DNA from: Escherichia coli
GTDB taxonomy: Bacteria; Pseudomonadota; Gammaproteobacteria; Enterobacterales; Enterobacteriaceae
Assembly: GCA_032372955.1 (NCBI GenBank)
Contig: GCA_032372955.1_4725.1
Reading direction: 5' to 3' (one strand)
DNA length: 64,000 bases
Shown: positions 13,262 through 48,880 of the stretch, in pieces
How the letters are laid out: every line of letters starts with the position of its first letter
Numbering within the stretch: position 1 is the first letter of the stretch
The notes under the pieces: generated by a model
Databases searched by the model: none
Seen by the model: the letters and a program-made list of their open reading frames with translations, nothing else
What the model was told of the DNA's origin: nothing
Program-made: the position numbers and the translations under genes

Positions 13262-13265
13262 TATT

Positions 13266-13297
13266 CCCTCTCCCTTCCCTTACGGGTTGGGAGAGGG
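13266..13297 (+). terminator. conserved CCTCC-armed hairpin element followed by CTTATGCTG
   Basis: CCCTCTCCC-TT-CCC-TTAC-GGG-TT-GGGAGAGGG. Confidence 0.5.
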
Positions 13298-13340
13298 CTT
13301 ATGCTGTCTTATTTCGCATTACTCCAGTTTATTTCGCGAC

Positions 13341-13356
13341 TACATTACCTAGGTGA
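13341..13356 (+). promoter_or_regulatory. conserved promoter-like motif TACATTACCTAGGTGA (copy A)
   Basis: Identical 16-mer recurs at 19821; related copies at 48000 and 60503; all intergenic, upstream of + strand genes. Confidence 0.45.
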
Positions 13357-13558
13357 TAAGAGCGGTTACTGTTGTCGCTGTAAATTTCTCTTAATAATCG
13401 AGGATACAGTCATGGCCTTATTAATACGCGACCCGTCAGCATACGAAAACACGCGTTATAACCATAACCAGTTCGGCAATAATTTCTAACAAAGAACGAT
13501 CAATCTATGCATTGATTCTTCTATCCGCAATCCACCTAACATAGAAAGGTAAAATACG

Positions 13559-14128
13559 ATGTTTAATCCAGAAATCATGATTCTTGATCCTTGGTACCTC
13601 AACAAACTTCCAGGAATCAAAATGCCAGGCGATCCTCACGCATTCGATTTGATGGTCGTTGCCGAAGTTACCAGCAATACGGTTAACACCATCGACGATG
13701 ATGAGGTTCCTGTTGAAGAGGTGTTCTCTGTTACGACGACATTACTGGAAAGTCGAGAGCTGACCGAAAACGGCAGCGCCGATGAAATCATTCCTATCGA
13801 TGGTGAGATGGAGATCATGTTAACACAGGTCGAGTTGCACCATCGTGTCGCACCAACAAAAGACACGCCTTATGACAATGAACCTGCAGAACAACCTGAT
13901 GAAAACGGTCGAGTGAAACTTGCTGACATCGACGACGATGCTCTTGAAGATATCGACGAAAACGAAGAAACGAACTTCTACCAAGCTGAAGCGAAAGAAG
14001 CGTTTGATAAAGCGGTTCAGCATGATCGACGTATCACCGAGAAGATGATCCAACAACAACTTATCGGTAAACGTCTTAAGCTCGAATTCGCAAGCGGGGT
14101 GCTTACTACCTGGTCACTCATCGTCTAA
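13559..14128 (+). CDS. highly acidic hypothetical protein
   Basis: 189-aa ORF, AAAGG RBS; large D/E excess; sits downstream of promoter-like motif at 13341. Confidence 0.6.
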   Translation: MFNPEIMILDPWYLNKLPGIKMPGDPHAFDLMVVAEVTSNTVNTIDDDEVPVEEVFSVTTTLLESRELTENGSADEIIPIDGEMEIMLTQVELHHRVAPTKDTPYDNEPAEQPDENGRVKLADIDDDALEDIDENEETNFYQAEAKEAFDKAVQHDRRITEKMIQQQLIGKRLKLEFASGVLTTWSLIV

Positions 14129-17277: not shown

Positions 17278-17426
17278 CGTAGGGAAAAGTTATGCGGCAT
17301 TTTTAGTGTTGTATCACGACCTCAATAACGGTAAGTGTTTACTGATACTATAGTGGCGCATGCACGCGTGTACGCTATGGTCTATCGACCGACTTATATA
17401 AGTTAATTCTGTAAAGGATACTTTCA

Positions 17427-19649
17427 ATGAATGATAAAACCCTTCTTAGCCAACAGGTCGCGGCCACTCGCCAGTTCCTGACCGCTAATGGTAGCAAACC
17501 AGCAGACAAAGGTCTGGAGAACACCTTCCTGTCTATGGAATCTGCTTCTAAGGTTGATTTCAAATCCATGGACAAACTGGTTAACGAAATGGATGTTAAG
17601 AGCTTCAGCAGCGACATCCGTAAAGCAGAAGAACCGGTTCTGTCCATGCTGGGCTTCGAAACCACCACTCCGGAAGAGAAGCAGCGTATTGAAGAACAGC
17701 TGTTCACCATGAACGCACAGCAGGCTCGTGCAGCAGCACTGATCATGCTGGCTCATGGCAACCCGGTGGAATATGCTAAACAAGCACGTTCCATGAACAT
17801 CAGCACCACTCCGTCTGGCCGTGAAGTTGACAGCTCTAACTTCGTCATGATGGCCGCCGATTCCTGCGGTTGCGAATCTGAAGAACTGGTTCAGCTGTCC
17901 TACGACCAGAAAGAACTGCGTGACATGATGCCGTACTCCGTTGTGTTCAACGTGAAGGCTTCTCGTCTGAGCCGCATGGGTAACGAACTGTACAACACCA
18001 TCGTTCTGGCTCCGAACCAGATCGGTTACGACGTATCTTTCCGTCGTCCGCTGGTGTTCAACCACCTGCGTCGTAACGCTGACGGTACTCCGGCTGATTG
18101 GGTACGTCGTCCGCTGCTGGATGCGTTCATGTACAACGACGTTCTGTCCAACGACGTGACCGATCTGCATCCGATCTATCGTGCTGACGATGCTAACGCG
18201 CAGTACTTCGTTGACAAAACTATCGTTGCTCCGCGTGACATCGAAATTAAAGGCGTAACTTACAAAACGTCTTACCTGGCCGTTGATAAACTGATCGACA
18301 TGATCGGTATTGCTGAAGACGATAGCATCCTGGCTAACGGTTACAGCGACAACACCGACGCGCTGGACGCTCAGATCACGCTGACCAAAATCCTGGTGGA
18401 AATCAAATCCACCAAACACAGCAAAACCTCTTACGTACCGTTCGACGTATCTGGTCTGATCACCAACGGTTTCCAGAAATCCCTGGAAGGCGACTTCCGC
18501 AAAATGACCCTGGCGTTCGACACCCACTCCATCTTCGTTGATGAGAACACCGTTGACGTTAAAGGTGCACGAGCTGAAGCGCTGCAGGACATCATCGATT
18601 CGAAATCCGCTGCTCAGCTGGCAATCGAAGTTTACGGTTCTTCCAACGTAGAGAAAGCCGGTCTGCGTGTTAACGGCGCTAACGCTGAACTGTATCGTCT
18701 GGTCGATCGTGACAACATCGAACAACCGCGTAAGGGCGAAGAGTTCAAACAGCTGGCTGAAGACCTGAGCTTCAAACTGGTTGGTTACGAACTGCGTATC
18801 CGCCGTAACAACAGCAACCGTCGTGAGCGTGGTAAGCACCTTGACTTCAACATGAAGCAAGAACGTTACGCAATCGGCCTGCTGGCTCCGTTCTCCATTC
18901 CTCGTCCGCTGGATTGGGAAGAAAACGCTGCTGACCTGGACGTTCTGATCCAAGCTGCTAACGCACGTTTCGACAACCTGATGGTTGAGAAACTGTTCAG
19001 CTACAAAGACGCACTGAAAGCGGTTGCGACCTCTCGCTTCCGTCAGTTCGGCGACATCCAGATCGAAGGTTTCGGTCGTTACCTGATCCGTCCGTGGTTC
19101 GAAGAAATCAATCTGGACCTGGAGAAATCTGTTCAGGGTACCACCACTGCAGAACGTCGTGCTGAAGTGTCCGCTGCGATCATGAACGTGATTCGTGAGA
19201 TGGCATACCGCATGTACTCCGAGTCTGGTTATCAGCCAGCTCTGCAGCTGCTGTCTTCCAACGCTGATGAGAAACCGCGTTGCGTAGTAGCAACTGACAA
19301 CTACATCCCGCAGTTCCTGCAGACCGATGGCGATTTCCGTACCGTTGGTGTGAGCTTCAACTTCGTGGTTGTAGATAACCCGAACGTCATGCTGCGCGAT
19401 AAGATCTTCGTGACCCTGTCTCGTGGTATCCAGGGTTCTCCGGATCCGCTGACCTTCGGTATGTTCCTGTATGTACCGGAACTGGTATCTGTTGCTCAGG
19501 TTACCCGTAACGGTCAGGTTTCTAAAGAAACCATGGTTCAGCCGCGCTGCCGCTTCGTTAACAACTGCCCGCTGCTGGGTCTGATTAACGTTGTGAACCT
19601 GCGTAAGGTCTACACTGAAAACATCAAGCTGCCTGTTCAGACTAACTGA
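17427..19649 (+). CDS. abundant virion structural protein, probable major capsid protein
   Basis: 740-aa ORF, AAAGGA RBS. Extreme bias to high-expression codons (ctg, cgt, ggt, aac, ttc), unlike neighbours; size fits jumbo-phage capsid proteins. Identity not verified. Confidence 0.55.
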   Translation: MNDKTLLSQQVAATRQFLTANGSKPADKGLENTFLSMESASKVDFKSMDKLVNEMDVKSFSSDIRKAEEPVLSMLGFETTTPEEKQRIEEQLFTMNAQQARAAALIMLAHGNPVEYAKQARSMNISTTPSGREVDSSNFVMMAADSCGCESEELVQLSYDQKELRDMMPYSVVFNVKASRLSRMGNELYNTIVLAPNQIGYDVSFRRPLVFNHLRRNADGTPADWVRRPLLDAFMYNDVLSNDVTDLHPIYRADDANAQYFVDKTIVAPRDIEIKGVTYKTSYLAVDKLIDMIGIAEDDSILANGYSDNTDALDAQITLTKILVEIKSTKHSKTSYVPFDVSGLITNGFQKSLEGDFRKMTLAFDTHSIFVDENTVDVKGARAEALQDIIDSKSAAQLAIEVYGSSNVEKAGLRVNGANAELYRLVDRDNIEQPRKGEEFKQLAEDLSFKLVGYELRIRRNNSNRRERGKHLDFNMKQERYAIGLLAPFSIPRPLDWEENAADLDVLIQAANARFDNLMVEKLFSYKDALKAVATSRFRQFGDIQIEGFGRYLIRPWFEEINLDLEKSVQGTTTAERRAEVSAAIMNVIREMAYRMYSESGYQPALQLLSSNADEKPRCVVATDNYIPQFLQTDGDFRTVGVSFNFVVVDNPNVMLRDKIFVTLSRGIQGSPDPLTFGMFLYVPELVSVAQVTRNGQVSKETMVQPRCRFVNNCPLLGLINVVNLRKVYTENIKLPVQTN

Positions 19650-19736
19650 ACTACCGTAGCTGCTTCGTTGGACGATATTCTTGACGACAACGTTGCGGAT
19701 GGTTTCATTGCACCGGACATTCATCCGGCACCGTGA
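19650..19736 (+). other. in-frame 28-codon open extension after the capsid TGA stop
   Basis: No stop from 19650 to TGA at 19734-19736, same frame as capsid ORF; encodes TTVAASLDDILDDNVADGFIAPDIHPAP. Confidence 0.4.
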
Positions 19737-19748
19737 TACATAAGTCAG

Positions 19749-19778
19749 CCTCCCTCAGCCCGTAAGGGTTGGGGGAGG
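19749..19778 (+). terminator. conserved hairpin element variant followed by TTTCTATG
   Basis: CCTCCC-TCAG-CCC-GTAA-GGG-TTGG-GGGAGG, downstream of the capsid gene and its extension. Confidence 0.5.
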
Positions 19779-19820
19779 TTTCTATGCCGTTTACGTTGTG
19801 AATAGAAAAAATTTGACGCT

Positions 19821-19836
19821 TACATTACCTAGGTGA
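19821..19836 (+). promoter_or_regulatory. conserved promoter-like motif TACATTACCTAGGTGA (copy B)
   Basis: Exact repeat of copy A, ~150 nt upstream of the 19986 gene. Confidence 0.45.
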
Positions 19837-19985
19837 CAGACGCCTGCGATGAATAAGGCATAGACAACACGTAAGGTCGTTCTCGCGCTAGGAACGATGC
19901 TGAAACCGTCGGCTGTCGGCTCGATAAGAACAAGAAAAGGGAAATGCGTTATGCGTGATAGTTTTCAATCAGATGGAGGTTGACG

Positions 19986-21422
19986 ATGCCCTCCATGCCA
20001 ATATGTGATACCGCGTTCGAACCGTGGGATGGTACGCACGCTTATCGCATTGACGGTTATGCTGAACCGTTATATGACCTGGAATTAGGATGGGCATGTA
20101 TTAATGAATCTGGCCATACCGTGTTGGTGATCACCTCCGACAATATGTTCCAGTACATTCCTGGTAGGGTTGAGGACGGCAATACATTCAGGATCGTACG
20201 ACGTTCAAAATTTCGTAGTCCTGTAATAGTTGACAGCCATGACGTATCTAATGCGAATGGTGCATTCAGAAACTTCGTCTACGCGGGTAGACGTCGGGAT
20301 ATACTCCGTGTTAAAAACGGCACAGGTTACGCGATAAGGAAACCGCATATCCGTCGTATTGTTAACACAGAGAAAATGCCGCGTCTACTAGACCAGCAAG
20401 ACTGGTACGATACGCTGGATGAAATATGTCAAATTGACCTCAACACGTTGAACTTTAATCAACCCGCATATGTCGCGCAAATCAACGTGGCAATCGTAAA
20501 AGTTAAAGGAGAATACAAAAGCGCAGACCACGTTACGAAAGGGATTGATCACCCCTACATCGCAACGTGCGCGCGGAGCTTGACGGGAAAAACAGAGGGT
20601 TTCCGAATTCTCGGAACGCAACTCACTATCCATTGGACGCCACCCGACTTTCATAATCCGTATAGCTTATGGGTTAACGTGTTAGGGAAAGCGTTCGAAA
20701 TAAAACCAACGAATGGAGCAGGCGCGCCAGGTATGTTGGTTACCTTCGGGAATAATGACTCCATCTTCGTACCGGTCGAAGATTTGGAAAAAGAGATGTG
20801 GAAGTACAATGTTTTTCCGACACGTGAATCGGCATTGCATTGGCGCGACCCCGTCCAAAAAGAAGCCTACAAAAATGATTTCGACCAACGTAGCTACGAA
20901 CGTAAGGCATCGGAAGAAACCCTTAAAGGGGTGATGGCTGAAATGCGACGTATGGCGGATGAACACAAGGCAGTTATCGCACAGATGCATGAGGCGCATC
21001 GCGCCGACGCAAAGCTGCGCGATGAACAACATAAAGCCGAACTCGATCAGCTTAAAGACGAACAAAAACGTAGGATGGAACAACACCAAGCCGAAATGAA
21101 ACGTCAAGATGATCTACGTAAACAAATACACGAAGATTATCAAGCTGATTTAAAACGTCGTGATGATGAGGCTAAACGCAAACATGAAGAATTCGTCGCT
21201 GAACTTCGTCGTCGAGATGAAGAATCCAAACGTAAGCACGACGAGTTTGCTGCTGAGATACGCCGACGTGATGAAGAGGCAAAAAGACAACGTGAAGCGG
21301 AAGAAGCGCGACGTCAACGTAACGTCGATGTTTGGAAAGCCGCTGCGAGTATAACTGCGGCCGTTGTCGGTATAGGTATGACCTTTTTCAAGATTCTTGA
21401 GAAGGCGTCATCGAAAAAGTAA
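19986..21422 (+). CDS. hypothetical protein with charged helical repeats and C-terminal transmembrane anchor
   Basis: Start chosen at ATG 19986 (GGAGG RBS). C-terminal ~130 aa is E/R/K-rich with tandem RRRDEEAKRKHEEF repeats, then hydrophobic AAASITAAVVGIGMTFF. Confidence 0.65.
   Translation: MPSMPICDTAFEPWDGTHAYRIDGYAEPLYDLELGWACINESGHTVLVITSDNMFQYIPGRVEDGNTFRIVRRSKFRSPVIVDSHDVSNANGAFRNFVYAGRRRDILRVKNGTGYAIRKPHIRRIVNTEKMPRLLDQQDWYDTLDEICQIDLNTLNFNQPAYVAQINVAIVKVKGEYKSADHVTKGIDHPYIATCARSLTGKTEGFRILGTQLTIHWTPPDFHNPYSLWVNVLGKAFEIKPTNGAGAPGMLVTFGNNDSIFVPVEDLEKEMWKYNVFPTRESALHWRDPVQKEAYKNDFDQRSYERKASEETLKGVMAEMRRMADEHKAVIAQMHEAHRADAKLRDEQHKAELDQLKDEQKRRMEQHQAEMKRQDDLRKQIHEDYQADLKRRDDEAKRKHEEFVAELRRRDEESKRKHDEFAAEIRRRDEEAKRQREAEEARRQRNVDVWKAAASITAAVVGIGMTFFKILEKASSKK
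21153..21314 (+). repeat. tandem ~54-nt (18-aa) coding repeats
   Basis: KRRDDEAKRKHEEFVAEL / RRRDEESKRKHDEFAAEI / RRRDEEAKRQREAEEARR read directly from the translation. Confidence 0.6.
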
Positions 21423-21461
21423 CTTTAATCTGCTTAAGCAACTTTCTGAAAGGAGTGTGTG

Positions 21462-23258
21462 ATGGATCCTAGATTCTGCAAAGCTGTCGCTGAGCTTGCA
21501 CCGAAGATGAACGAGAAGATAGCACGCAACATCGTCGTCGATAAGATGCAAGATGTTGAGTCCTATGTTGATCGTCTTTGGCGGAACAGCAAAGATAGTT
21601 TACCTAAGGATCTGGTGTATCATGGCCTGCGTCGCTGCATGGCCCGCGAACAGTTCCACTACTTAAGCGGAGGAAAGAAAACCAAAGGGAAGGATAGCGG
21701 TAAGCTGACCTTCGACCTTGCGCCTTCCGATGTGTTTATGGTGATGCTGGAATTCCGCTGGTACGGCGCAATGGAATCAGGTGACCGTCGTGAACCAGGA
21801 AAGGACTACTGCATTATCCGACACCCTCTCCTATTGCCCGCGGTAGGTCAGGGTGGTAAAATGCGTCTACGTGGTGCGAACTTCATTCTCAGTGCGGTGC
21901 TCGCTGACCCTGTAATCAGTTACACGAAAGACATGGCGTTCATCATGCTTCCGCGTGACAAAATCACGGTTAAACGTACACCGTATCAGTTCCTGAGCAA
22001 TGATACACCGACCGGTATCGATTATCGTCATTACCTATCATTACCCTGGTCGCAAATCTATCATCTTACCAAACAAAGTAAAGTGAACGGTGACAACATC
22101 AACCACACCAGCGTAACCACACTGGGTCACTATCTCTTTGCGAAGTATGGGGTGGGTGAGTGTTTCCGACGTTTTGCAGGCGTCGAAGCCGTAACCGGAC
22201 GGAACCTTGCTGAACGTGATTTTCCGCGCGACCAATGGGTAATCTATCGCACCATGGGGGTTATTCCTAAAGGCTTTAGTATCAGCAAAAGCGGTAAAAG
22301 CCGTAGCGCTAGCGCTGTACGTTACAAGCATCCTGATATTCAAATTGCCGTAAGACGTGGAGGCACGGAACGTATTGTTCTTGGCCTTGTCGGCGCATTC
22401 TTGTATCTCATCGACCGTTATTACGATCGTTTTCCGGAAGACTATCCGGTTGAAGAGTTCGCGAATGCGCCAGACCATTGGCGTACATTACTCGGTTTGA
22501 TTATCTTTAATAACAACAATGCAGATGCGCGTTTGTTGCGTGATGTAAACCACCACATCGACAGTCTCGATCTTTACGTTGACGAGATTCAGCAGAAGAA
22601 GTTCAAACAGGAAAATATTCCTTGCGATGACTTCTACGAATTTATGGCGTATCTGATTGACAATGTTACTATCGAAATGAGTCGTGTTGATACCACGACG
22701 ATGTTCGGTAAGGAATTGATGGTGTTGGAATATGTCATGGAGGATGTGCGTAAGAGCATCTTTAAACTGGGGTTCCATCTTAAAACCACAGAACGTGGTA
22801 AACGACAGAACAACCGTAAAGAGATGACCAATCGCGATGTACAGAAGGCGTTGCGAAATCAAGTTGCGACGGAAGCGATTCTCAATATCCAGAGCAATCG
22901 TGATAAGCGTGAGAAAGTGGCAACATCGATTCAGTCACCTGGTGATTGCATGCTGTTCAAAGTGAGCACGCATGTTGTTCTCCAGAGCCAAAATGCAGGC
23001 GGTGCTGCATTGGCTGACGAGAGTCGTTTGGTTAGTGGTTCCATCCCGTTCTGTGCAAGCTATCTGAATCTTCCACACTCCGAACCAACCGGACGTCAGA
23101 AGTTCAGTATGTACGCACCTATCGACGAACGTGGTCGGTTAATCATTACCCCACAAATTGCAAATGACGTTGCAGCAACCAATGCAGGCTTGAAGAAAGA
23201 CGTCGGTCGATTCGATGAAGAAATTGTAGAAATTAACGATCACGACATAATCGATTGA
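21462..23258 (+). CDS. hypothetical protein
   Basis: Start chosen at ATG 21462 (AAAGGAG RBS, 6-nt spacer); 598 aa. Confidence 0.65.
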   Translation: MDPRFCKAVAELAPKMNEKIARNIVVDKMQDVESYVDRLWRNSKDSLPKDLVYHGLRRCMAREQFHYLSGGKKTKGKDSGKLTFDLAPSDVFMVMLEFRWYGAMESGDRREPGKDYCIIRHPLLLPAVGQGGKMRLRGANFILSAVLADPVISYTKDMAFIMLPRDKITVKRTPYQFLSNDTPTGIDYRHYLSLPWSQIYHLTKQSKVNGDNINHTSVTTLGHYLFAKYGVGECFRRFAGVEAVTGRNLAERDFPRDQWVIYRTMGVIPKGFSISKSGKSRSASAVRYKHPDIQIAVRRGGTERIVLGLVGAFLYLIDRYYDRFPEDYPVEEFANAPDHWRTLLGLIIFNNNNADARLLRDVNHHIDSLDLYVDEIQQKKFKQENIPCDDFYEFMAYLIDNVTIEMSRVDTTTMFGKELMVLEYVMEDVRKSIFKLGFHLKTTERGKRQNNRKEMTNRDVQKALRNQVATEAILNIQSNRDKREKVATSIQSPGDCMLFKVSTHVVLQSQNAGGAALADESRLVSGSIPFCASYLNLPHSEPTGRQKFSMYAPIDERGRLIITPQIANDVAATNAGLKKDVGRFDEEIVEINDHDIID

Positions 23259-23292: not shown

Positions 23293-25851
23293 ATGTATAA
23301 TGGCAGTAACAACATGTATCAACAAATGGGCTATAGCGAAAACCCTTATACGAGCACGGTTAATTATGCGGCTGAACAGGTTCGTCAGCAACAGTATCAG
23401 CAATCACCGTACGGCGCATATCCGAATAACGCCTATCAACCACCACAATACCAACAACCCTCATATCAGCAGAACTATAACTTCATCACCCAAGAAGCAA
23501 CGATCGTCAAAATCCGTCAAGCTATCTTTAATGTCCTGAAAGACTTCGCTCAGCAAGACAAAATACAAACCGAGTTCGTCGCACGTTATACCAATAACGA
23601 TATGATGATGGAATCGCTTGTTGAAGACTGTTGTTGGAACGTGTTCTCTTACATCAACCCGATGCCGCAGAACGCGTCCGACGACCAGATCGTCTCTGCT
23701 GCCGTGAGCACAGTTGCGCTGTATCATCTTGTAACGTGGCTCTTTGAACCGAATCAGTACCCGGAATATTATCGCGCGATTGAATTATCACGCATTAACC
23801 CGGAAGCCGCGAATAAGTACACGCAGCTGAATAAAAGCGGGAGCCTGGCACAAATCGCGCAGAAGTCACGTGGTTTGAAGCAGCAGGTGATGCAGATGGG
23901 GATGACTTATCGTGGCCCGCAAGCAAGCGCGATGGTTAGTGGCGGGTACGGTCAACCACAACAGCCAGCGTACGCCATGTATGGTGGAACCTATCCGCAA
24001 CCGCAATACCAGCCTAATCCGGCAGTTATGCGTGGTATGGCTCCAACAACGCCAGGATACGGCGCACAACCTCGGCCGACGGTTGTTCAACCACAAGCGC
24101 CATCGTACATCGATTCGAAGGATTGTGCGTTCAACCGTTTGTATGATGTTGGTGATGACGATCCTATCGTTGATGATGCACCTGCTGCTACAGCGCCGCG
24201 TTACGAGGCACCACAACCACGGATTTACTCGACAAATCCTGAAGGAGATATTGGTGGTATCAACGATATCTTTGCAGCGGCTGAACAGTTTGCTGAACAG
24301 TACGAAGAGCCAGAATGGCATGTTAAGGCTGGGCAGCAGAAACCCGTTCAACCTGAACCTGCGCAGGTGAAACCGGAACCCGTTCGTACGGCTCGTTCTG
24401 CTACGGTAACAAAGACCGTTAATCCAATTGATGCGACCGAAGATGCTAAGCGTTACGGTCGTGTTGTTCAACATGAAGAATTTATGCAGATGCGTCTGAA
24501 AGCCAAAGACTTTGCACCTAATAGTCGTTGGCCGACGTTGTATGACTTCAGACACTTCGCTCGTCGGGCACGTATCGACGAAAACGGAATTCTTCATGAA
24601 ACCATTGTTGACATTACATCCCTCACGGAGGAAGAAGTGGAATACATCGAACTTGAATCAGATCCAACCGCTCGTCGTATGGCAGAGCAGGAAATGGCAA
24701 AACTGGATCGTATCGCGCAAGCAGAAGTTGTTCGTGTTAGCCTTAACAAACCGGTTCAGCGTGAGCCAATCGTTGTCGGTGAGCAGCGCGAAATGAAACT
24801 GTTTACCGTCACCGACGCGATCGCAGCGTCAAGCGTTGAGGATGCTGAAACCAAAGCTGCGGTAGCGATCATCCAGCAGACCAACACCGACGTCAACCAA
24901 AACGACGCATTAGCATTCCTGGCTACCGTCAATTCCTATCTGGGAACCTATACCGACAAAGAGCTAGATGCAATCCATGAATTCCTGGATGCGTTGTCTA
25001 TTGATAAGGGTCGTAGCGACGATATCAAAGCTTATCGTCAGATCATGCAACAGTATCGTGATGTCATTCCTCTGCGTATTTGGCATTTCCTGAACGATAG
25101 CATGACCAAAGACGTTAACAAGCTGATCAAACGTATCGTACCGAAGAACTTCTCTGAAACCACCATCTCTAGCTTCGTTGATGATATCGGAGAACTGTCC
25201 GGTTGGCTGATTCACGATCTTAAAATGGACCAGAAGTTCATTGAAGATGAATTCTCCAATTGCTACTACACCTGGGTCAACATGCTGAAGTGTCTCTACT
25301 GCAATCGCGATGGCGAAGGTCAGTGGAACATTCGTCTTTCCATGGCTGAACTGTACAACATGCATGACTACCTGAAAGCCGCTCACGAAAAATCTGCAGC
25401 GAATCGTGAACGTCATCTGGTTGCCATGAGTGAGTATCGTGCAGAACTGGAGAAAGATGGCTCTCTGGATGCTGACGAAATCGAACGTCGTTTGGCGGAT
25501 GCGGCTATCGAGGATATGCGTGTTAATCCAGACATCGTTACCGACGAAGATAGCAACGATGCTTACTGGTTCAATCACAGCGTATTCGCGATGCGTCCGC
25601 ATGTTGTTGTTCGCGTACCGACCAACGCCAAGATTCTGAAGCTGAACCAGAGCGGTTACACTCACGCATCGGCTGCAACCAACCCAAGCATTGCTCGTAT
25701 GCTGGATCAGGTGTTCAAGACCTTCGAAACCAAAGTAAAAGGTCTGCAATCTGTTACTGTAATTCTGAGCGATGATACTCGTCTGAAAGCAGTACGTACG
25801 GTAAACGGTATTACCGCTTCCGAGTATCTGCTGGAACGTGAAGAGCAGTAA
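23293..25851 (+). CDS. hypothetical protein with Q/Y/P/G-rich low-complexity regions
   Basis: 852-aa ORF, AAAGGA RBS; N-terminal ~65 aa and residues ~190-270 are Q/Y/P/N/G-rich. Confidence 0.7.
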   Translation: MYNGSNNMYQQMGYSENPYTSTVNYAAEQVRQQQYQQSPYGAYPNNAYQPPQYQQPSYQQNYNFITQEATIVKIRQAIFNVLKDFAQQDKIQTEFVARYTNNDMMMESLVEDCCWNVFSYINPMPQNASDDQIVSAAVSTVALYHLVTWLFEPNQYPEYYRAIELSRINPEAANKYTQLNKSGSLAQIAQKSRGLKQQVMQMGMTYRGPQASAMVSGGYGQPQQPAYAMYGGTYPQPQYQPNPAVMRGMAPTTPGYGAQPRPTVVQPQAPSYIDSKDCAFNRLYDVGDDDPIVDDAPAATAPRYEAPQPRIYSTNPEGDIGGINDIFAAAEQFAEQYEEPEWHVKAGQQKPVQPEPAQVKPEPVRTARSATVTKTVNPIDATEDAKRYGRVVQHEEFMQMRLKAKDFAPNSRWPTLYDFRHFARRARIDENGILHETIVDITSLTEEEVEYIELESDPTARRMAEQEMAKLDRIAQAEVVRVSLNKPVQREPIVVGEQREMKLFTVTDAIAASSVEDAETKAAVAIIQQTNTDVNQNDALAFLATVNSYLGTYTDKELDAIHEFLDALSIDKGRSDDIKAYRQIMQQYRDVIPLRIWHFLNDSMTKDVNKLIKRIVPKNFSETTISSFVDDIGELSGWLIHDLKMDQKFIEDEFSNCYYTWVNMLKCLYCNRDGEGQWNIRLSMAELYNMHDYLKAAHEKSAANRERHLVAMSEYRAELEKDGSLDADEIERRLADAAIEDMRVNPDIVTDEDSNDAYWFNHSVFAMRPHVVVRVPTNAKILKLNQSGYTHASAATNPSIARMLDQVFKTFETKVKGLQSVTVILSDDTRLKAVRTVNGITASEYLLEREEQ

Positions 25852-47308: not shown

Positions 47309-48097
47309 TTTATGTTTGTGATTATTCTTCTCTTTTATAATTTCTAATGATAAGATTAAGTACCTGGAGTAAAAGTTTACAGATGTTGTAAATGTATTTG
47401 GAAAGTAAAATTTCCACGACCTCGGCCCCTTCGGGGGACGGGGGAGGAGCGAAGTCCTTTAGAGACGAGCAACAGGATAACTCTAAGAAAAAGAAAAACT
47501 AAACGAGCGAAGCGAGTTTATGTTTTTATCCTTAGAGTTATCAAGCTATAAGCGTAGCGTTAGCGTATAACGGTTATGTCGTATACGAATGCAATGAGTA
47601 TAGACGAGATACTCTGATGAACAACGTGAAGAAGAGTATCACAAATGTTTTTTGAGTTATCCGGATTTAACTAGCATGTAACGAAGTGTAATGCACAGAT
47701 GACATGTGTTACCGTTAAGGTAGTAAACACATGTTATCCATTGTTTTGAAGATAAGCTTATTAACTTACTTTTAAATCAATTTAAATATACAAACAACTT
47801 AAACATACCAAGATAAAACAATTGAACCTAAGATAAACAAGATAACTTAGACAATACACTTTTAACGAATACAGATAACATCTTACTTAAATCAAAATAC
47901 CTATCCTCGTTTACCTTCCTTGCTTGCAACACCTCTTCTAAATCCATCCCTTCTTAAGAAACAACAAAACCCTTACTGTAACACAAATCCTTTCACGACT
48001 ATATTACCTAAGTGATGCGTACGTACGATGTTCGTATTGCGTCAAATAGAACTCAATACGTTGTTTAATTAACGTGAAAAACAGAGGAACTTTTTAA
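47309..48097. other. 789-bp AT-rich non-coding region with inverted and direct repeats
   Basis: No ORF of 60 aa or more; 12-bp inverted repeat 47476-47487 / 47531-47542; five AGATAA copies 47750-47880; direct repeat CTTACTT(TT)AAATCAA at 47765 and 47882. Confidence 0.6.
48000..48015 (+). promoter_or_regulatory. conserved promoter-like motif TATATTACCTAAGTGA (copy C)
   Basis: Preceded by TTTCACGAC as in copy D; ~80 nt upstream of the 48098 gene cluster. Confidence 0.45.
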
Positions 48098-48880
48098 ATG
48101 AACGATGAAATCATTTTTGATACCATGTTTACTGGAGATGAATACCTGGCGTTACCGAGCGATGTTCAAAACGAATGCGTGAAGGTAGCATGCTACAGCG
48201 GCGGTCAGGCTGGGATGCGTGTACGTTGCGTTGACGGGACGAACGGGAAAGTTGTTTGGCGTGGTGCTCACACGTACCCTTACCTGCTTACCGGCAACAA
48301 GAATTGGTACGCTCATCGCAGCCAGCATCCTGCACGGATGAGCGCGAGCGGATTCGTGGTACGTGGTGCGTTGGATGAACGGGTGGAACGCATCGAGATC
48401 ACCGATCGCGCGTTCATCGATCAGCTTGCACAGGTTGCTTACGATGAGGGACGTGCAACAGGGCGATACGGTTGGTTGAAGGTGAACAGCGATACGCAAT
48501 TACAGGTAGGATTCCATCACGCGCTTCCTGGGTGGGCGAACCATACCGTTGGAACGTATTACACCAAAAAGCTTACCATGGTGAAACCTTACATGGCGGA
48601 TGCGAGCTTGGAGGCAACGGATCAGATGCATCAATTGCTTCGCATGTATTATCCACGGGTGGTGCATCCACTTGGGTTCGCTTGGGTCAGCGAAGTGCGC
48701 TACAACCCACGCAAGAAACGCGTTGAAGCGAAGGTGCTTAACGAACGTTGGTTACCGGTTGTGCAACCAGGGCTTGACGATGAATCCATCATGATGCGGG
48801 TAAGCCGAAGCCGGTTCGTACAATGGGATGCTACCATGCTACAACGCCCACAACACGTTACAGGAGAAACGTTCGCATGA
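48098..48880 (+). CDS. hypothetical protein
   Basis: 260-aa ORF, AGAGGAA RBS; first gene after the AT-rich region and promoter-like motif. Confidence 0.6.
   Translation: MNDEIIFDTMFTGDEYLALPSDVQNECVKVACYSGGQAGMRVRCVDGTNGKVVWRGAHTYPYLLTGNKNWYAHRSQHPARMSASGFVVRGALDERVERIEITDRAFIDQLAQVAYDEGRATGRYGWLKVNSDTQLQVGFHHALPGWANHTVGTYYTKKLTMVKPYMADASLEATDQMHQLLRMYYPRVVHPLGFAWVSEVRYNPRKKRVEAKVLNERWLPVVQPGLDDESIMMRVSRSRFVQWDATMLQRPQHVTGETFA

What the first reader, a model, noticed from the sequence alone, without database searches (positions are those of the whole stretch)
19986..21422. Protein with tandem charged-helix repeats and a C-terminal membrane anchor
The C-terminal third is an uninterrupted E/R/K-rich segment with three tandem 18-aa repeats (RRRDEE[AS]KRKHEEF[VA]AE[LI], nt 21153-21314), typical of a single stable alpha-helix spacer, followed by a hydrophobic helix and a KK terminus (tail-anchored topology). 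It sits directly downstream of promoter-like motif copy B. A rigid spacer on a membrane anchor suggests a ruler or tether function.
Basis: seen in the sequence. Interest (0 to 1): 0.45.

Follow-up and report, generated by a model that had tools for sequence, protein, structure and literature searches.

The report
Tail-anchored stalk protein of nucleus-forming phages
This gene encodes a core protein found only in nucleus-forming jumbo phages, with a globular head on a long charged helix that ends in a probable membrane anchor, so it may link a lipid membrane to the phage nucleus, although its function is untested.

Summary
ORF 19986-21422 (478 aa) is 99% identical to phage Goslar gp040. It has a ~290-aa beta-rich N-terminal domain and one uninterrupted predicted helix (about residues 289-474). 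The helix contains not three but about seven degenerate 18-residue repeats with single-alpha-helix-like charge patterning. A 17-19-residue hydrophobic segment and a basic tail lie at the extreme C-terminus.

The gene is not an orphan. It is Chimalliviridae core gene cg35 (phiKZ gp122, RAY gp001), one of the genes unique to chimallin-encoding phages. It always lies between the major capsid gene and a non-virion RNA polymerase subunit gene. A conserved TAYATTAC promoter motif, of the kind used by the virion RNA polymerase, lies upstream, which suggests early expression.

gp040 is absent from the Goslar virion proteome. The PhiPA3 orthologue co-purifies with chimallin and ChmB. phiKZ gene 122 tolerated no transposon insertions, though polar effects are possible.

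Head, stalk and hydrophobic tail are conserved family-wide. Stalk length varies (460-507 aa among close relatives, through 18- and 11-residue indels). The tail is transmembrane-grade only in some lineages.

My best reading is an early, tail-anchored spacer acting between a membrane and the nuclear shell. This is inferred, not shown.

The parts
19749..19778 (+). Terminator-like GC hairpin ending the major capsid protein transcript
   Evidence: Stem of 13-15 pairs (15 in the predicted fold) with a GUAA loop. The stretch 19735-19800 folds at -31.3 kcal/mol, z -5.6 against shuffles. A similar hairpin precedes the motif copy at 13341.
19813..19836 (+). Conserved chimallivirus promoter motif (TTTGACGCT-TACATTAC-CTAGGT-G), with the start site predicted at G19835
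   Evidence: Four copies of TAYATTAYNWANGTG in the window against 0.7 expected. The same motif lies between the capsid gene and gene X in 12 of 15 chimallivirus loci. It matches published promoter consensus sequences of phiKZ, 201phi2-1 and EL (PMC7058600). It also matches the virion-polymerase early motif TATATTAT-(6N)-G+1 of AR9 (PMC5312081).
19975..19979 (+). Ribosome-binding site GGAGG, 6 nt before the ATG
   Evidence: Read directly from the sequence.
19986..21422 (+). CDS of the Goslar gp040 orthologue (Chimalliviridae core gene cg35, phiKZ gp122 family), 478 aa
   Evidence: Orthology table in Prichard et al. 2023, Table S3.
19986..20855 (+). N-terminal beta-rich globular domain (residues 1 to about 290), specific to the family
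   Evidence: N40, S42, P220, G234 and F277 are invariant across 28 homologues. hhalign against the EL-like clade gives 95.6% probability, E 1.3e-8. Foldseek matches only uncharacterised chimallivirus proteins. No Pfam family and no PDB relative.
20850..21332 (+). Single uninterrupted charged alpha-helix (residues about 289-449), roughly 21 nm if straight
   Evidence: AlphaFold2 helix 289-474 or 310-475; composition; charge-pair statistics.
20937..21314 (+). About seven degenerate 18-residue repeats (residues 318-443).
   Evidence: Autocorrelation z 9.4, 6.1 and 4.2 at lags 18, 36 and 54. Hydrophobic periodicity is 3.6 residues.
21333..21389 (+). C-terminal hydrophobic helix W450-F468 (candidate tail anchor), followed by the conserved K469
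   Evidence: Kyte-Doolittle 19-residue mean 1.76; Eisenberg mean hydrophobicity 0.63 with moment 0.29. W450 and K469 are nearly invariant in 28 homologues.
21390..21419 (+). Short basic C-terminal tail KILEKASSKK
   Evidence: Read from the sequence. A Lys directly after the hydrophobic segment occurs in nearly all members (W450 and K469 are conserved in at least 90% of 28 homologues).
21462..23258 (+). Downstream gene, probably co-transcribed: non-virion RNA polymerase subunit (Goslar gp039, phiKZ gp123)
   Evidence: PHROG 2943 'polymerase', E 7e-120. 39-nt gap with no hairpin or motif. This gene order is the same in all 15 loci examined.

Best explanation
The ORF encodes the Goslar-type member of Chimalliviridae core gene cg35 (the phiKZ gp122 family).

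Shown
- It is a non-virion protein.
- Its gene sits behind a conserved promoter motif at the head of an operon with a non-virion RNA polymerase subunit gene.
- The protein has three parts: a family-specific ~290-aa N-terminal domain, a ~140-160-residue helix made of degenerate 18-residue repeats with charge patterning typical of a stable single alpha-helix, and a hydrophobic C-terminal helix bracketed by a conserved Trp and Lys.

Inferred
- The gene is transcribed early by the injected virion polymerase.
- The C-terminal helix inserts post-translationally into a lipid bilayer, either the inner membrane or the early phage infection (EPI) vesicle derived from it. The whole protein stays on the cytoplasmic side.
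- The stiff stalk holds the N-terminal domain about 20 nm from the membrane in Goslar-type phages and less in others.
- The N-terminal domain engages the chimallin shell or its partner ChmB. The protein would then act as a membrane-to-nucleus tether or spacer during establishment of the phage nucleus.
For: Identity and orthology
- 98.4% nucleotide identity to Goslar and 99% protein identity to gp040.
- Prichard et al. Table S3 lists cg35 as Goslar gp040 = phiKZ gp122 = RAY gp001, marked as unique to chimallin-encoding phages.
- Independent support comes from cross-hits among PHROGs 7727, 7286 and 15024, an hhalign probability of 95.6%, and Foldseek E-values of 1e-9 to 1e-11 to proteins of 201phi2-1, RP12, Deimos-Minion and others.
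- The order capsid gene, gene X, polymerase subunit gene holds in all 15 loci.

Architecture conserved at 13-30% identity
- Every member has a head, a charged helix and a C-terminal hydrophobic segment, with W and K spaced about 19 residues apart.
- The tail is transmembrane-grade in the Goslar clade (Kyte-Doolittle 1.76-2.02), in the Ralstonia and Burkholderia phages (1.75-2.0) and in a Vibrio phage (2.47).

Nature of the stalk: see the charge-pair and heptad statistics.

Early expression
- The promoter motif matches virion-polymerase consensus sequences and is conserved at this position.
- The non-virion polymerase is a product of early genes (PMC5312081).

Not in virions: gp040 is absent from the Goslar virion mass-spectrometry table, although trace gp039 was detected.

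Link to the shell: the PhiPA3 orthologue (gene 138) was found in ChmA and ChmB pulldowns and in ChmA proximity labelling (PMC10643120).

Importance
- phiKZ genes 119-124 carry no transposon insertions.
- Antisense knockdown of phiKZ 122 lowers fitness and strongly changes phage transcription at 30 min (PMC12571901).
Against: - No transmembrane predictor could be run, and the hydropathy of the Goslar tail is marginal.
- Comparable hydropathy peaks occur in 9 of 52 ORFs of the window.
- The C-terminal flank is basic, which disfavours translocation across an energised inner membrane.
- The phiKZ, PhiPA3, EL-like, Serratia and Aeromonas orthologues have weaker tails with 2-3 charged residues (Eisenberg mean 0.42-0.53). 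These include PhiPA3, the only phage with interaction data.
- The shell association comes from one pulldown and proximity-labelling data set in a distant orthologue, and those authors left the role open.
- The phiKZ knockdown and transposon phenotypes may be polar effects on the polymerase gene immediately downstream.
- The N-terminal domain model is poor (pLDDT mostly 30-75), so nothing is known about what it binds.
Confidence: 0.4

Rival explanations
1. The protein is a soluble, shell-associated factor. The C-terminal hydrophobic helix is not a lipid anchor. It is a protein-protein contact or oligomerisation element, for example one that docks into the chimallin lattice or bundles several stalks. 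The helix is a spacer projecting from the nuclear shell.
For: - Tails of the phiKZ, PhiPA3, EL-like, Serratia, Aeromonas and Photobacterium orthologues are only moderately hydrophobic and contain 2-3 charged residues.
- The PhiPA3 orthologue was recovered with ChmA and ChmB.
- Hydropathy of the Goslar tail is marginal, and similar peaks are common in this genome.
- A weak hydrophobic stripe with 3.6-residue periodicity (37% occupancy, z 3.9) could support lateral association.
Against: - Several lineages have tails that are hard to explain other than as transmembrane helices: Vibrio LIGIVIGGIAAVLTALGV (mean 0.87, no charges), Burkholderia, P0015 and P0016.
- The Trp and Lys flanks at a constant spacing of about 19 residues are a typical bilayer-interface signature.
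Confidence: 0.3
2. The protein is a capsid-assembly factor. It would be a membrane-bound initiator or scaffold-like chaperone that nucleates procapsids on the inner membrane, functionally like T4 gp40 or a scaffolding protein, and it is absent from mature virions.
For: - The gene lies immediately downstream of the major capsid gene.
- The protein is helical and charged like scaffolds, and is absent from virions.
- One family member gives a weak Pfam Phage_scaffold hit (E 0.0011).
- Capsids of Pseudomonas chimalliviruses are reported to assemble on the membrane (PMC10299810 introduction).
- ChmB pulldowns are rich in capsid proteins.
Against: - A strong hairpin and a virion-polymerase-type promoter separate it from the capsid gene and join it to a polymerase subunit gene.
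- The family is listed as unique to chimallin-encoding phages.
- The Phage_scaffold hit is a single sub-threshold coiled-coil match.
Confidence: 0.12
3. The protein is an accessory factor of the non-virion RNA polymerase, involved in assembly, import or localisation of the enzyme. This would explain the invariant linkage to the gp123-type subunit gene.
For: - The operon with the polymerase subunit gene is conserved in all 15 loci.
- Knockdown of phiKZ 122 strongly changes phage transcription at 30 min.
- There is a weak Foldseek resemblance to NusG, but it is not significant (E 0.2).
Against: - The purified phiKZ non-virion polymerase is described as split beta and beta-prime homologues plus gp068, with no gp122 (PMC5312081).
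- The knockdown effect can be explained by polarity on gene 123.
- A hydrophobic C-terminal tail and a 20-nm stalk have no obvious role for an enzyme that works inside the nucleus.
Confidence: 0.1
4. The protein is an ordinary coiled-coil structural (virion) protein. This is the refutation condition set by the first reader.
Against: - Not detected in the Goslar virion proteome, where even proteins at 0.1 copies per virion were listed.
- Heptad core positions are only 28% hydrophobic.
Confidence: 0.03

Closest known systems
Chimalliviridae core gene cg35: phiKZ gp122, PhiPA3 gene 138 product, RAY gp001, EL gp079 (PHROGs 15024, 7286, 7727)
   Same: These are homologous by profile and fold, and occupy the same genomic position between the capsid gene and the non-virion polymerase subunit gene. 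Most of the loci examined (12 of 15) carry the same upstream promoter motif. All share the tripartite layout of head, charged helix and hydrophobic C-terminal helix.
   Different: The Goslar-type protein has by far the longest stalk, about 140-160 residues against about 40-90, built from 18-residue repeats. Its tail is more hydrophobic than those of phiKZ and PhiPA3. Identity to those proteins is only 13-16%. No member has an assigned function.
Bacterial C-tail-anchored inner-membrane proteins (E. coli ElaB, YqjD and YgaM, DUF883); comparison from memory
   Same: A cytoplasmic N-terminal part, one hydrophobic helix within the last ~30 residues, and a very short basic C-terminal end.
   Different: There is no sequence similarity. 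Those proteins are about 100 aa, are host-encoded and bind ribosomes in stationary phase. They have no long repeat helix.
Charged single alpha-helix (SAH) domains, such as those of myosin X and myosin VI
   Different: The period here is 18 residues, with a faint hydrophobic stripe at 3.6 residues. The N-terminal half of the stalk is only 45% charged. Monomeric behaviour is untested.
Eukaryotic tail-anchored coiled-coil tethers (golgins; CCDC90/MCUR1-type coiled coil plus C-terminal transmembrane helix)
   Same: A long rod ending in a C-terminal membrane helix, and the concept of capture at a distance. Two family members give weak Pfam CCDC90-like hits (E 0.0014).
   Different: This is analogy only. 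The hits are sub-threshold, the organisms and membranes differ, and the rod is SAH-like rather than a dimeric coiled coil.

Membership tests
Chimalliviridae core gene cg35 (phiKZ gp122 family) | Detectable sequence or profile homology to phiKZ gp122 and its relatives | tested here: met
   PHROG 7727 E 1e-5, with cross-hits linking PHROGs 7727, 7286 and 15024. hhalign probability 95.6%, E 1.3e-8. Foldseek E 1e-9 to 1e-11 to chimallivirus proteins. Listed as cg35 in Prichard et al. Table S3.
Chimalliviridae core gene cg35 (phiKZ gp122 family) | Position between the major capsid gene and the gp123-type non-virion polymerase subunit gene | tested here: met
   Window, Goslar, two metagenomic relatives and 11 other phages.
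Chimalliviridae core gene cg35 (phiKZ gp122 family) | Restricted to chimallin-encoding phages | tested here: inconclusive
   A search of 1.84 billion representative proteins gave only 3 hits. Every contig examined for synteny carried the phiKZ-type capsid gene, and named BFVD matches were jumbo phages. I did not check for chimallin in those contigs. The claim of uniqueness comes from the literature.
Tail-anchored membrane protein | A single hydrophobic helix within about 30 residues of the C-terminus, with no signal peptide or other hydrophobic segment | tested here: met
   The top eight Kyte-Doolittle windows all fall within residues 447-474, and the segment ends 7-10 residues from the C-terminus.
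Tail-anchored membrane protein | Hydrophobicity and length sufficient to span a bilayer | tested here: inconclusive
   17 uncharged residues; Kyte-Doolittle 1.76; summed insertion-scale value +1.35 kcal/mol for the window protein and -0.09 and -0.38 for P0015 and P0016. Orthologues range from an Eisenberg mean of 0.42 to 0.87. No dedicated predictor was available.
Tail-anchored membrane protein | Demonstrated post-translational membrane insertion with the N-terminus in the cytoplasm | not testable with these tools
   Needs fractionation or microscopy.
Charged single alpha-helix (SAH) | High E/K/R content, no Gly or Pro, and an excess of opposite charges at i+3 and i+4 | tested here: met
   70% charged in residues 390-443 and 54% in 301-449. 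Pair enrichment z 3.4-5.1 and same-charge depletion z -4 to -4.8.
Charged single alpha-helix (SAH) | Monomeric, stable helix in solution without a hydrophobic seam | tested here: inconclusive
   The seam is weak but detectable: the 18-residue stripe is 37% hydrophobic, z 3.9. The oligomeric state is not testable here.
Canonical (heptad) coiled coil | Hydrophobic residues at heptad a and d positions | tested here: not met
   The best register is 28% hydrophobic against 23% in shuffles (z 1.6). Hydrophobic periodicity is 3.6, not 3.5.
Phage scaffolding or virion structural protein | Co-expression with capsid genes, presence in procapsids or virions, or homology to scaffold families | tested here: not met
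   Absent from the virion proteome. Separated from the capsid gene by a hairpin and a promoter. No Pfam scaffold hit for this protein.

The most novel reading that the evidence does not exclude
cg35 is the phage-encoded link between the lipid world and the protein world of the chimallivirus life cycle. It would be made in the first wave of transcription and insert by its tail into the EPI vesicle or the inner membrane. Its N-terminal domain would recruit or orient chimallin and ChmB, so that the protein shell is nucleated at, and receives the genome from, the membrane vesicle. The stalk would set the gap between the two. Its indels of 18 and 11 residues correspond to near-whole helical turns and so keep the head in the same azimuthal orientation relative to the anchor.
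Probability: 0.22. Interest if true: 0.85.

Novelty: new variant of a known kind. Interest (0 to 1): 0.6.

Why it matters
About twenty genes are shared by, and unique to, nucleus-forming phages. Several of them still have no function, and cg35 is one. The phiKZ gene tolerated no transposon insertions, although polar effects are possible.

How the injected genome passes from the lipid EPI vesicle to the chimallin shell is an open question. So is how shell assembly is localised. No phage-encoded membrane protein has been tied to either step in the papers I could search.

Two things make cg35 a concrete candidate. It has a conserved layout of head, stalk and hydrophobic tail. It is probably expressed early alongside the polymerase needed for the next stage. 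The natural length variants of the stalk (460, 478, 489 and 507 aa) offer ready-made material for testing whether distance or helical phase matters.

If the tail turns out not to bind lipid, the result still defines the domain structure of a protein associated with the nuclear shell.

Tried and rejected
Searches that found nothing
- Pfam gave no family for this protein, and only scattered sub-threshold coiled-coil hits for relatives.
- The PDB sequence profile search gave nothing.
- Foldseek against the PDB gave nothing significant; the best hit was Aquifex NusG at E 0.2.
- The afdb50 library was unavailable.

Searches that were poorly spent
- The second homologue search, with full-length sequences, was swamped by word matches to the charged region and added only phiKZ gp122.
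- tblastn of the N-terminal domain against 50,697 phage records found only Goslar.

Other negative results
- Tandem Repeats Finder found no DNA repeat, so recent slippage is rejected.
- The sigma-70 promoter scan found nothing, which fits phage-polymerase transcription.
- Literature searches for Goslar gp40, for transmembrane proteins of chimalliviruses, and for the phiKZ and PhiPA3 orthologues found no functional study.
- Several 'gp122' and 'gp138' hits referred to unrelated genes of other phages.

Ideas considered and dropped
- Spanin or holin: wrong topology and wrong genomic context.
- Anchor for PhuZ filaments: some chimalliviruses lack PhuZ, whereas cg35 is a core gene.
Full report
**What the window is.** The region 19500-22000 is 98.4% identical to Escherichia phage vB_EcoM_Goslar, a nucleus-forming jumbo phage. 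The ORF 19986-21422 corresponds to Goslar gp040 (YP_009820725), annotated 'hypothetical protein', with 4 substitutions in 478 residues. Upstream lies the major capsid protein gene (17427-19649; Pfam PhiKZ_MCP, E 5e-216). Downstream lies a non-virion RNA polymerase subunit gene (21462-23258; PHROG 2943, E 7e-120).

**Checking the observation.**
- The start is an ATG preceded by GGAGG.
- Residues 301-449 are 54% charged with 1% Gly/Pro, and residues 390-443 are 70% charged.
- AlphaFold2 gives one continuous helix from about residue 289 or 310 to 474. Without an alignment, pLDDT exceeds 90 in the centre.
- The three 18-residue units at nt 21153-21314 are real, but they are the best-preserved end of a longer array. 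Similarity autocorrelation over residues 305-450 peaks at lags 18, 36 and 54 (z 9.4, 6.1, 4.2). Weaker peaks occur at lags 11, 29 and 47. This gives about seven units between residues 318 and 443.
- The DNA units share only 52-65% identity and Tandem Repeats Finder reports nothing. The repeats are therefore ancient and kept by selection on the protein.
- The only hydrophobic peak is residues 452-468 (Kyte-Doolittle 1.76), followed by KILEKASSKK.

One caveat applies. 9 of 52 ORFs in this window reach a 19-residue Kyte-Doolittle mean of 1.6 or more, so the number alone is weak evidence. The position and the conservation carry the argument.

**Single helix or coiled coil.**
- Opposite charges at i+3 and i+4 are about twice as frequent as in shuffles of the same composition (z 3.4-5.1).
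- Like charges at those spacings are depleted 3- to 7-fold (z -4.0 and -4.8).
- The best heptad register has only 28% hydrophobic core positions (z 1.6).
- Hydrophobic residues recur every 3.6 residues, not every 3.5, and form a faint stripe (37% occupancy, z 3.9).

This favours a charged single alpha-helix, or at most a weakly associating straight helix, over a canonical coiled coil. It cannot be settled without biophysics.

**Relatives and repeat number.** Close relatives (>=90% identity in the N-terminal domain) come mostly from Salmonella and E. coli sequencing runs. They are 460, 478, 489 or 507 aa long. The N-terminal domain, the last repeats and the tail are nearly identical, and all length differences lie in the stalk. 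They are indels of 18, 11 and 18+11 residues. Eighteen residues make 5.0 helical turns and eleven make 3.06, so the indels change length by up to about 7 nm while rotating the head by 20 degrees or less. This is suggestive, but duplication of a repeat unit would also produce 18-residue steps.

An exhaustive HMMER search of 1.84 billion representative proteins found only two further proteins, at about 30% identity. Both keep a shorter charged helix and a more hydrophobic tail (Kyte-Doolittle about 2.0). Both lie between a phiKZ-type capsid gene and the polymerase subunit gene.

**It is a universal chimallivirus gene.** In every chimallivirus locus I fetched, one gene of 330-480 codons occupies the same slot. 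The loci came from phages of Ralstonia, Burkholderia, Xanthomonas, Klebsiella, Serratia, Photobacterium, Vibrio and Aeromonas, plus EL, PhiPA3 and a phiKZ-like phage. Several lines of evidence show that these proteins are homologous:
- PHROG cross-hits link families 7727, 7286 and 15024.
- An N-x-S motif (N40, S42) and a G-x-F-x-T-x-x-E-A motif run through the family.
- hhalign between the Goslar clade and the EL-like clade gives 95.6% probability.
- The AlphaFold model matches 28 BFVD proteins at E <= 1e-3. All are uncharacterised, and those that carry a name come from jumbo phages.

Prichard et al. 2023 reached the same orthology. Their Table S3 lists core gene cg35 as Goslar gp040, phiKZ gp122 and RAY gp001, flagged as unique to chimallin-encoding phages.

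All members share the layout of head, charged helix and C-terminal hydrophobic or amphipathic helix, with a Trp before and a Lys after the hydrophobic stretch. Tail hydrophobicity varies.
- It is transmembrane-grade in the Goslar, Ralstonia/Burkholderia and one Vibrio lineage (Eisenberg mean 0.63-0.87, with at most one charged residue).
- It is only 0.42-0.53, with 2-3 charges, in phiKZ, PhiPA3, EL-like, Serratia, Aeromonas and Photobacterium phages.

**Expression context.** A strong hairpin (-31.3 kcal/mol, z -5.6) follows the capsid gene. Next comes TTTGACGCT-TACATTAC-CTAGGT-G at 19813-19836. The core motif occurs four times in the window against 0.7 expected, always on the + strand in intergenic DNA. 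It lies between the capsid gene and gene X in 12 of 15 chimallivirus loci, often as the only copy in the locus.

The motif matches published promoter consensus sequences of phiKZ (TATATTAC), 201phi2-1 and EL (PMC7058600). It also has the form of the AR9 early promoter TATATTAT-(6N)-G+1, which is recognised by the injected virion polymerase (PMC5312081). That paper also states that the non-virion polymerase is a product of early genes.

With a 39-nt gap and no terminator before gp039, gp040 most likely heads an early operon gp040-gp039(-gp038). The timing is inferred, because I found no Goslar transcript data.

**Experimental hints from the literature.**
- gp040 is absent from the Goslar virion proteome table, in which gp039 at about 0.1 copies per virion still appears (doi 10.64898/2026.04.21.720040).
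- The PhiPA3 orthologue (gene 138, which the paper tool prints as 'xxxxx') was found in GFP pulldowns of both ChmA and ChmB and in ChmA proximity labelling. Its role was left unknown (PMC10643120).
- In phiKZ, genes 119-124 carry no transposon insertions after selection.
- Two antisense oligomers against gene 122 each gave a mild fitness defect, and depletion strongly altered phage transcription at 30 min (PMC12571901).
- Both phiKZ results could be polar effects on gene 123, which starts about 10 nt downstream.

**Interpretation.** The architecture, the family assignment, the non-virion status and the operon structure are shown or well supported. Membrane insertion, early timing and shell binding by the Goslar protein are inferences.

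Putting these together, I favour a tail-anchored spacer made early in infection. It would connect a lipid bilayer (the inner membrane or the EPI vesicle derived from it) with the chimallin shell or its partners, with a stalk of about 21 nm in this phage. A fixed 'ruler' is unlikely given the variation in length. A tether whose reach can drift, but whose helical phase is kept, fits better.

The main rival is that the tail is a protein-binding or bundling helix and the protein is a soluble component of the shell periphery. Roles in capsid assembly or as a polymerase accessory factor are less likely, for the reasons given under the rival explanations.

**Fold of the head.** Even with a 28-sequence alignment the N-terminal domain is modelled poorly (pLDDT 30-80). 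It has no significant PDB neighbour. Small beta-barrel and C2-like matches are too weak to use.

**Verdict.** The gene is a known but uncharacterised core gene. Its head, stalk and tail layout and its variable repeat stalk were not described in any paper I could find.

Noticed in passing
window 17424-19724, minus strand: A 766-aa open reading frame runs antisense through the entire major capsid protein gene. It is probably a by-product of the codon usage of the capsid gene.
   Followed up: no
window 13341-13355, 48000-48014, 60503-60517 (+ strand): Three further copies of the promoter motif TAYATTACYTARGTG lie in intergenic DNA upstream of ORFs 13559-14128, 48098-48880 and 60542-61198. The copy at 13341 follows a GC hairpin (about 13265-13300), as the copy at 19821 does.
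   Followed up: partly
window about 13314-13502 (Goslar gp047, L001 1817-2005): The 63-aa CDS annotated as gp047 in Goslar RefSeq contains the promoter motif copy at 13341, so the annotation may be spurious.
   Followed up: no
window 23293-25851: This is the gp038 orthologue (phiKZ gp124), the third gene of the putative operon. It gives a sub-threshold Pfam Cas9_C_2 hit (E 0.002). It is detected at about 25 copies per Goslar virion. Knockdown of phiKZ 124 also alters transcription.
   Followed up: partly
window 61252-61827 and 61818-62252: Two overlapping ORFs have strongly hydrophobic N-terminal segments (Kyte-Doolittle 19-residue means 2.65 and 2.24). They are the clearest membrane-protein candidates in the window.
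   Followed up: no
L010 1290-2441 (Xanthomonas phage RTH11): The cg35 orthologue is annotated as 207 aa, but the reading frame continues about 177 codons upstream and contains the conserved N-terminal motifs. The annotated start is too far downstream.
   Followed up: partly
L007 4447-4980 and L008 4572-4946: PhiPA3 and phiKZ-like phages carry an extra small gene (gp137 and gp121 respectively) between the promoter and the cg35 gene, overlapping its start by about 30-45 nt. Goslar-type, Ralstonia and most other lineages lack it.
   Followed up: no
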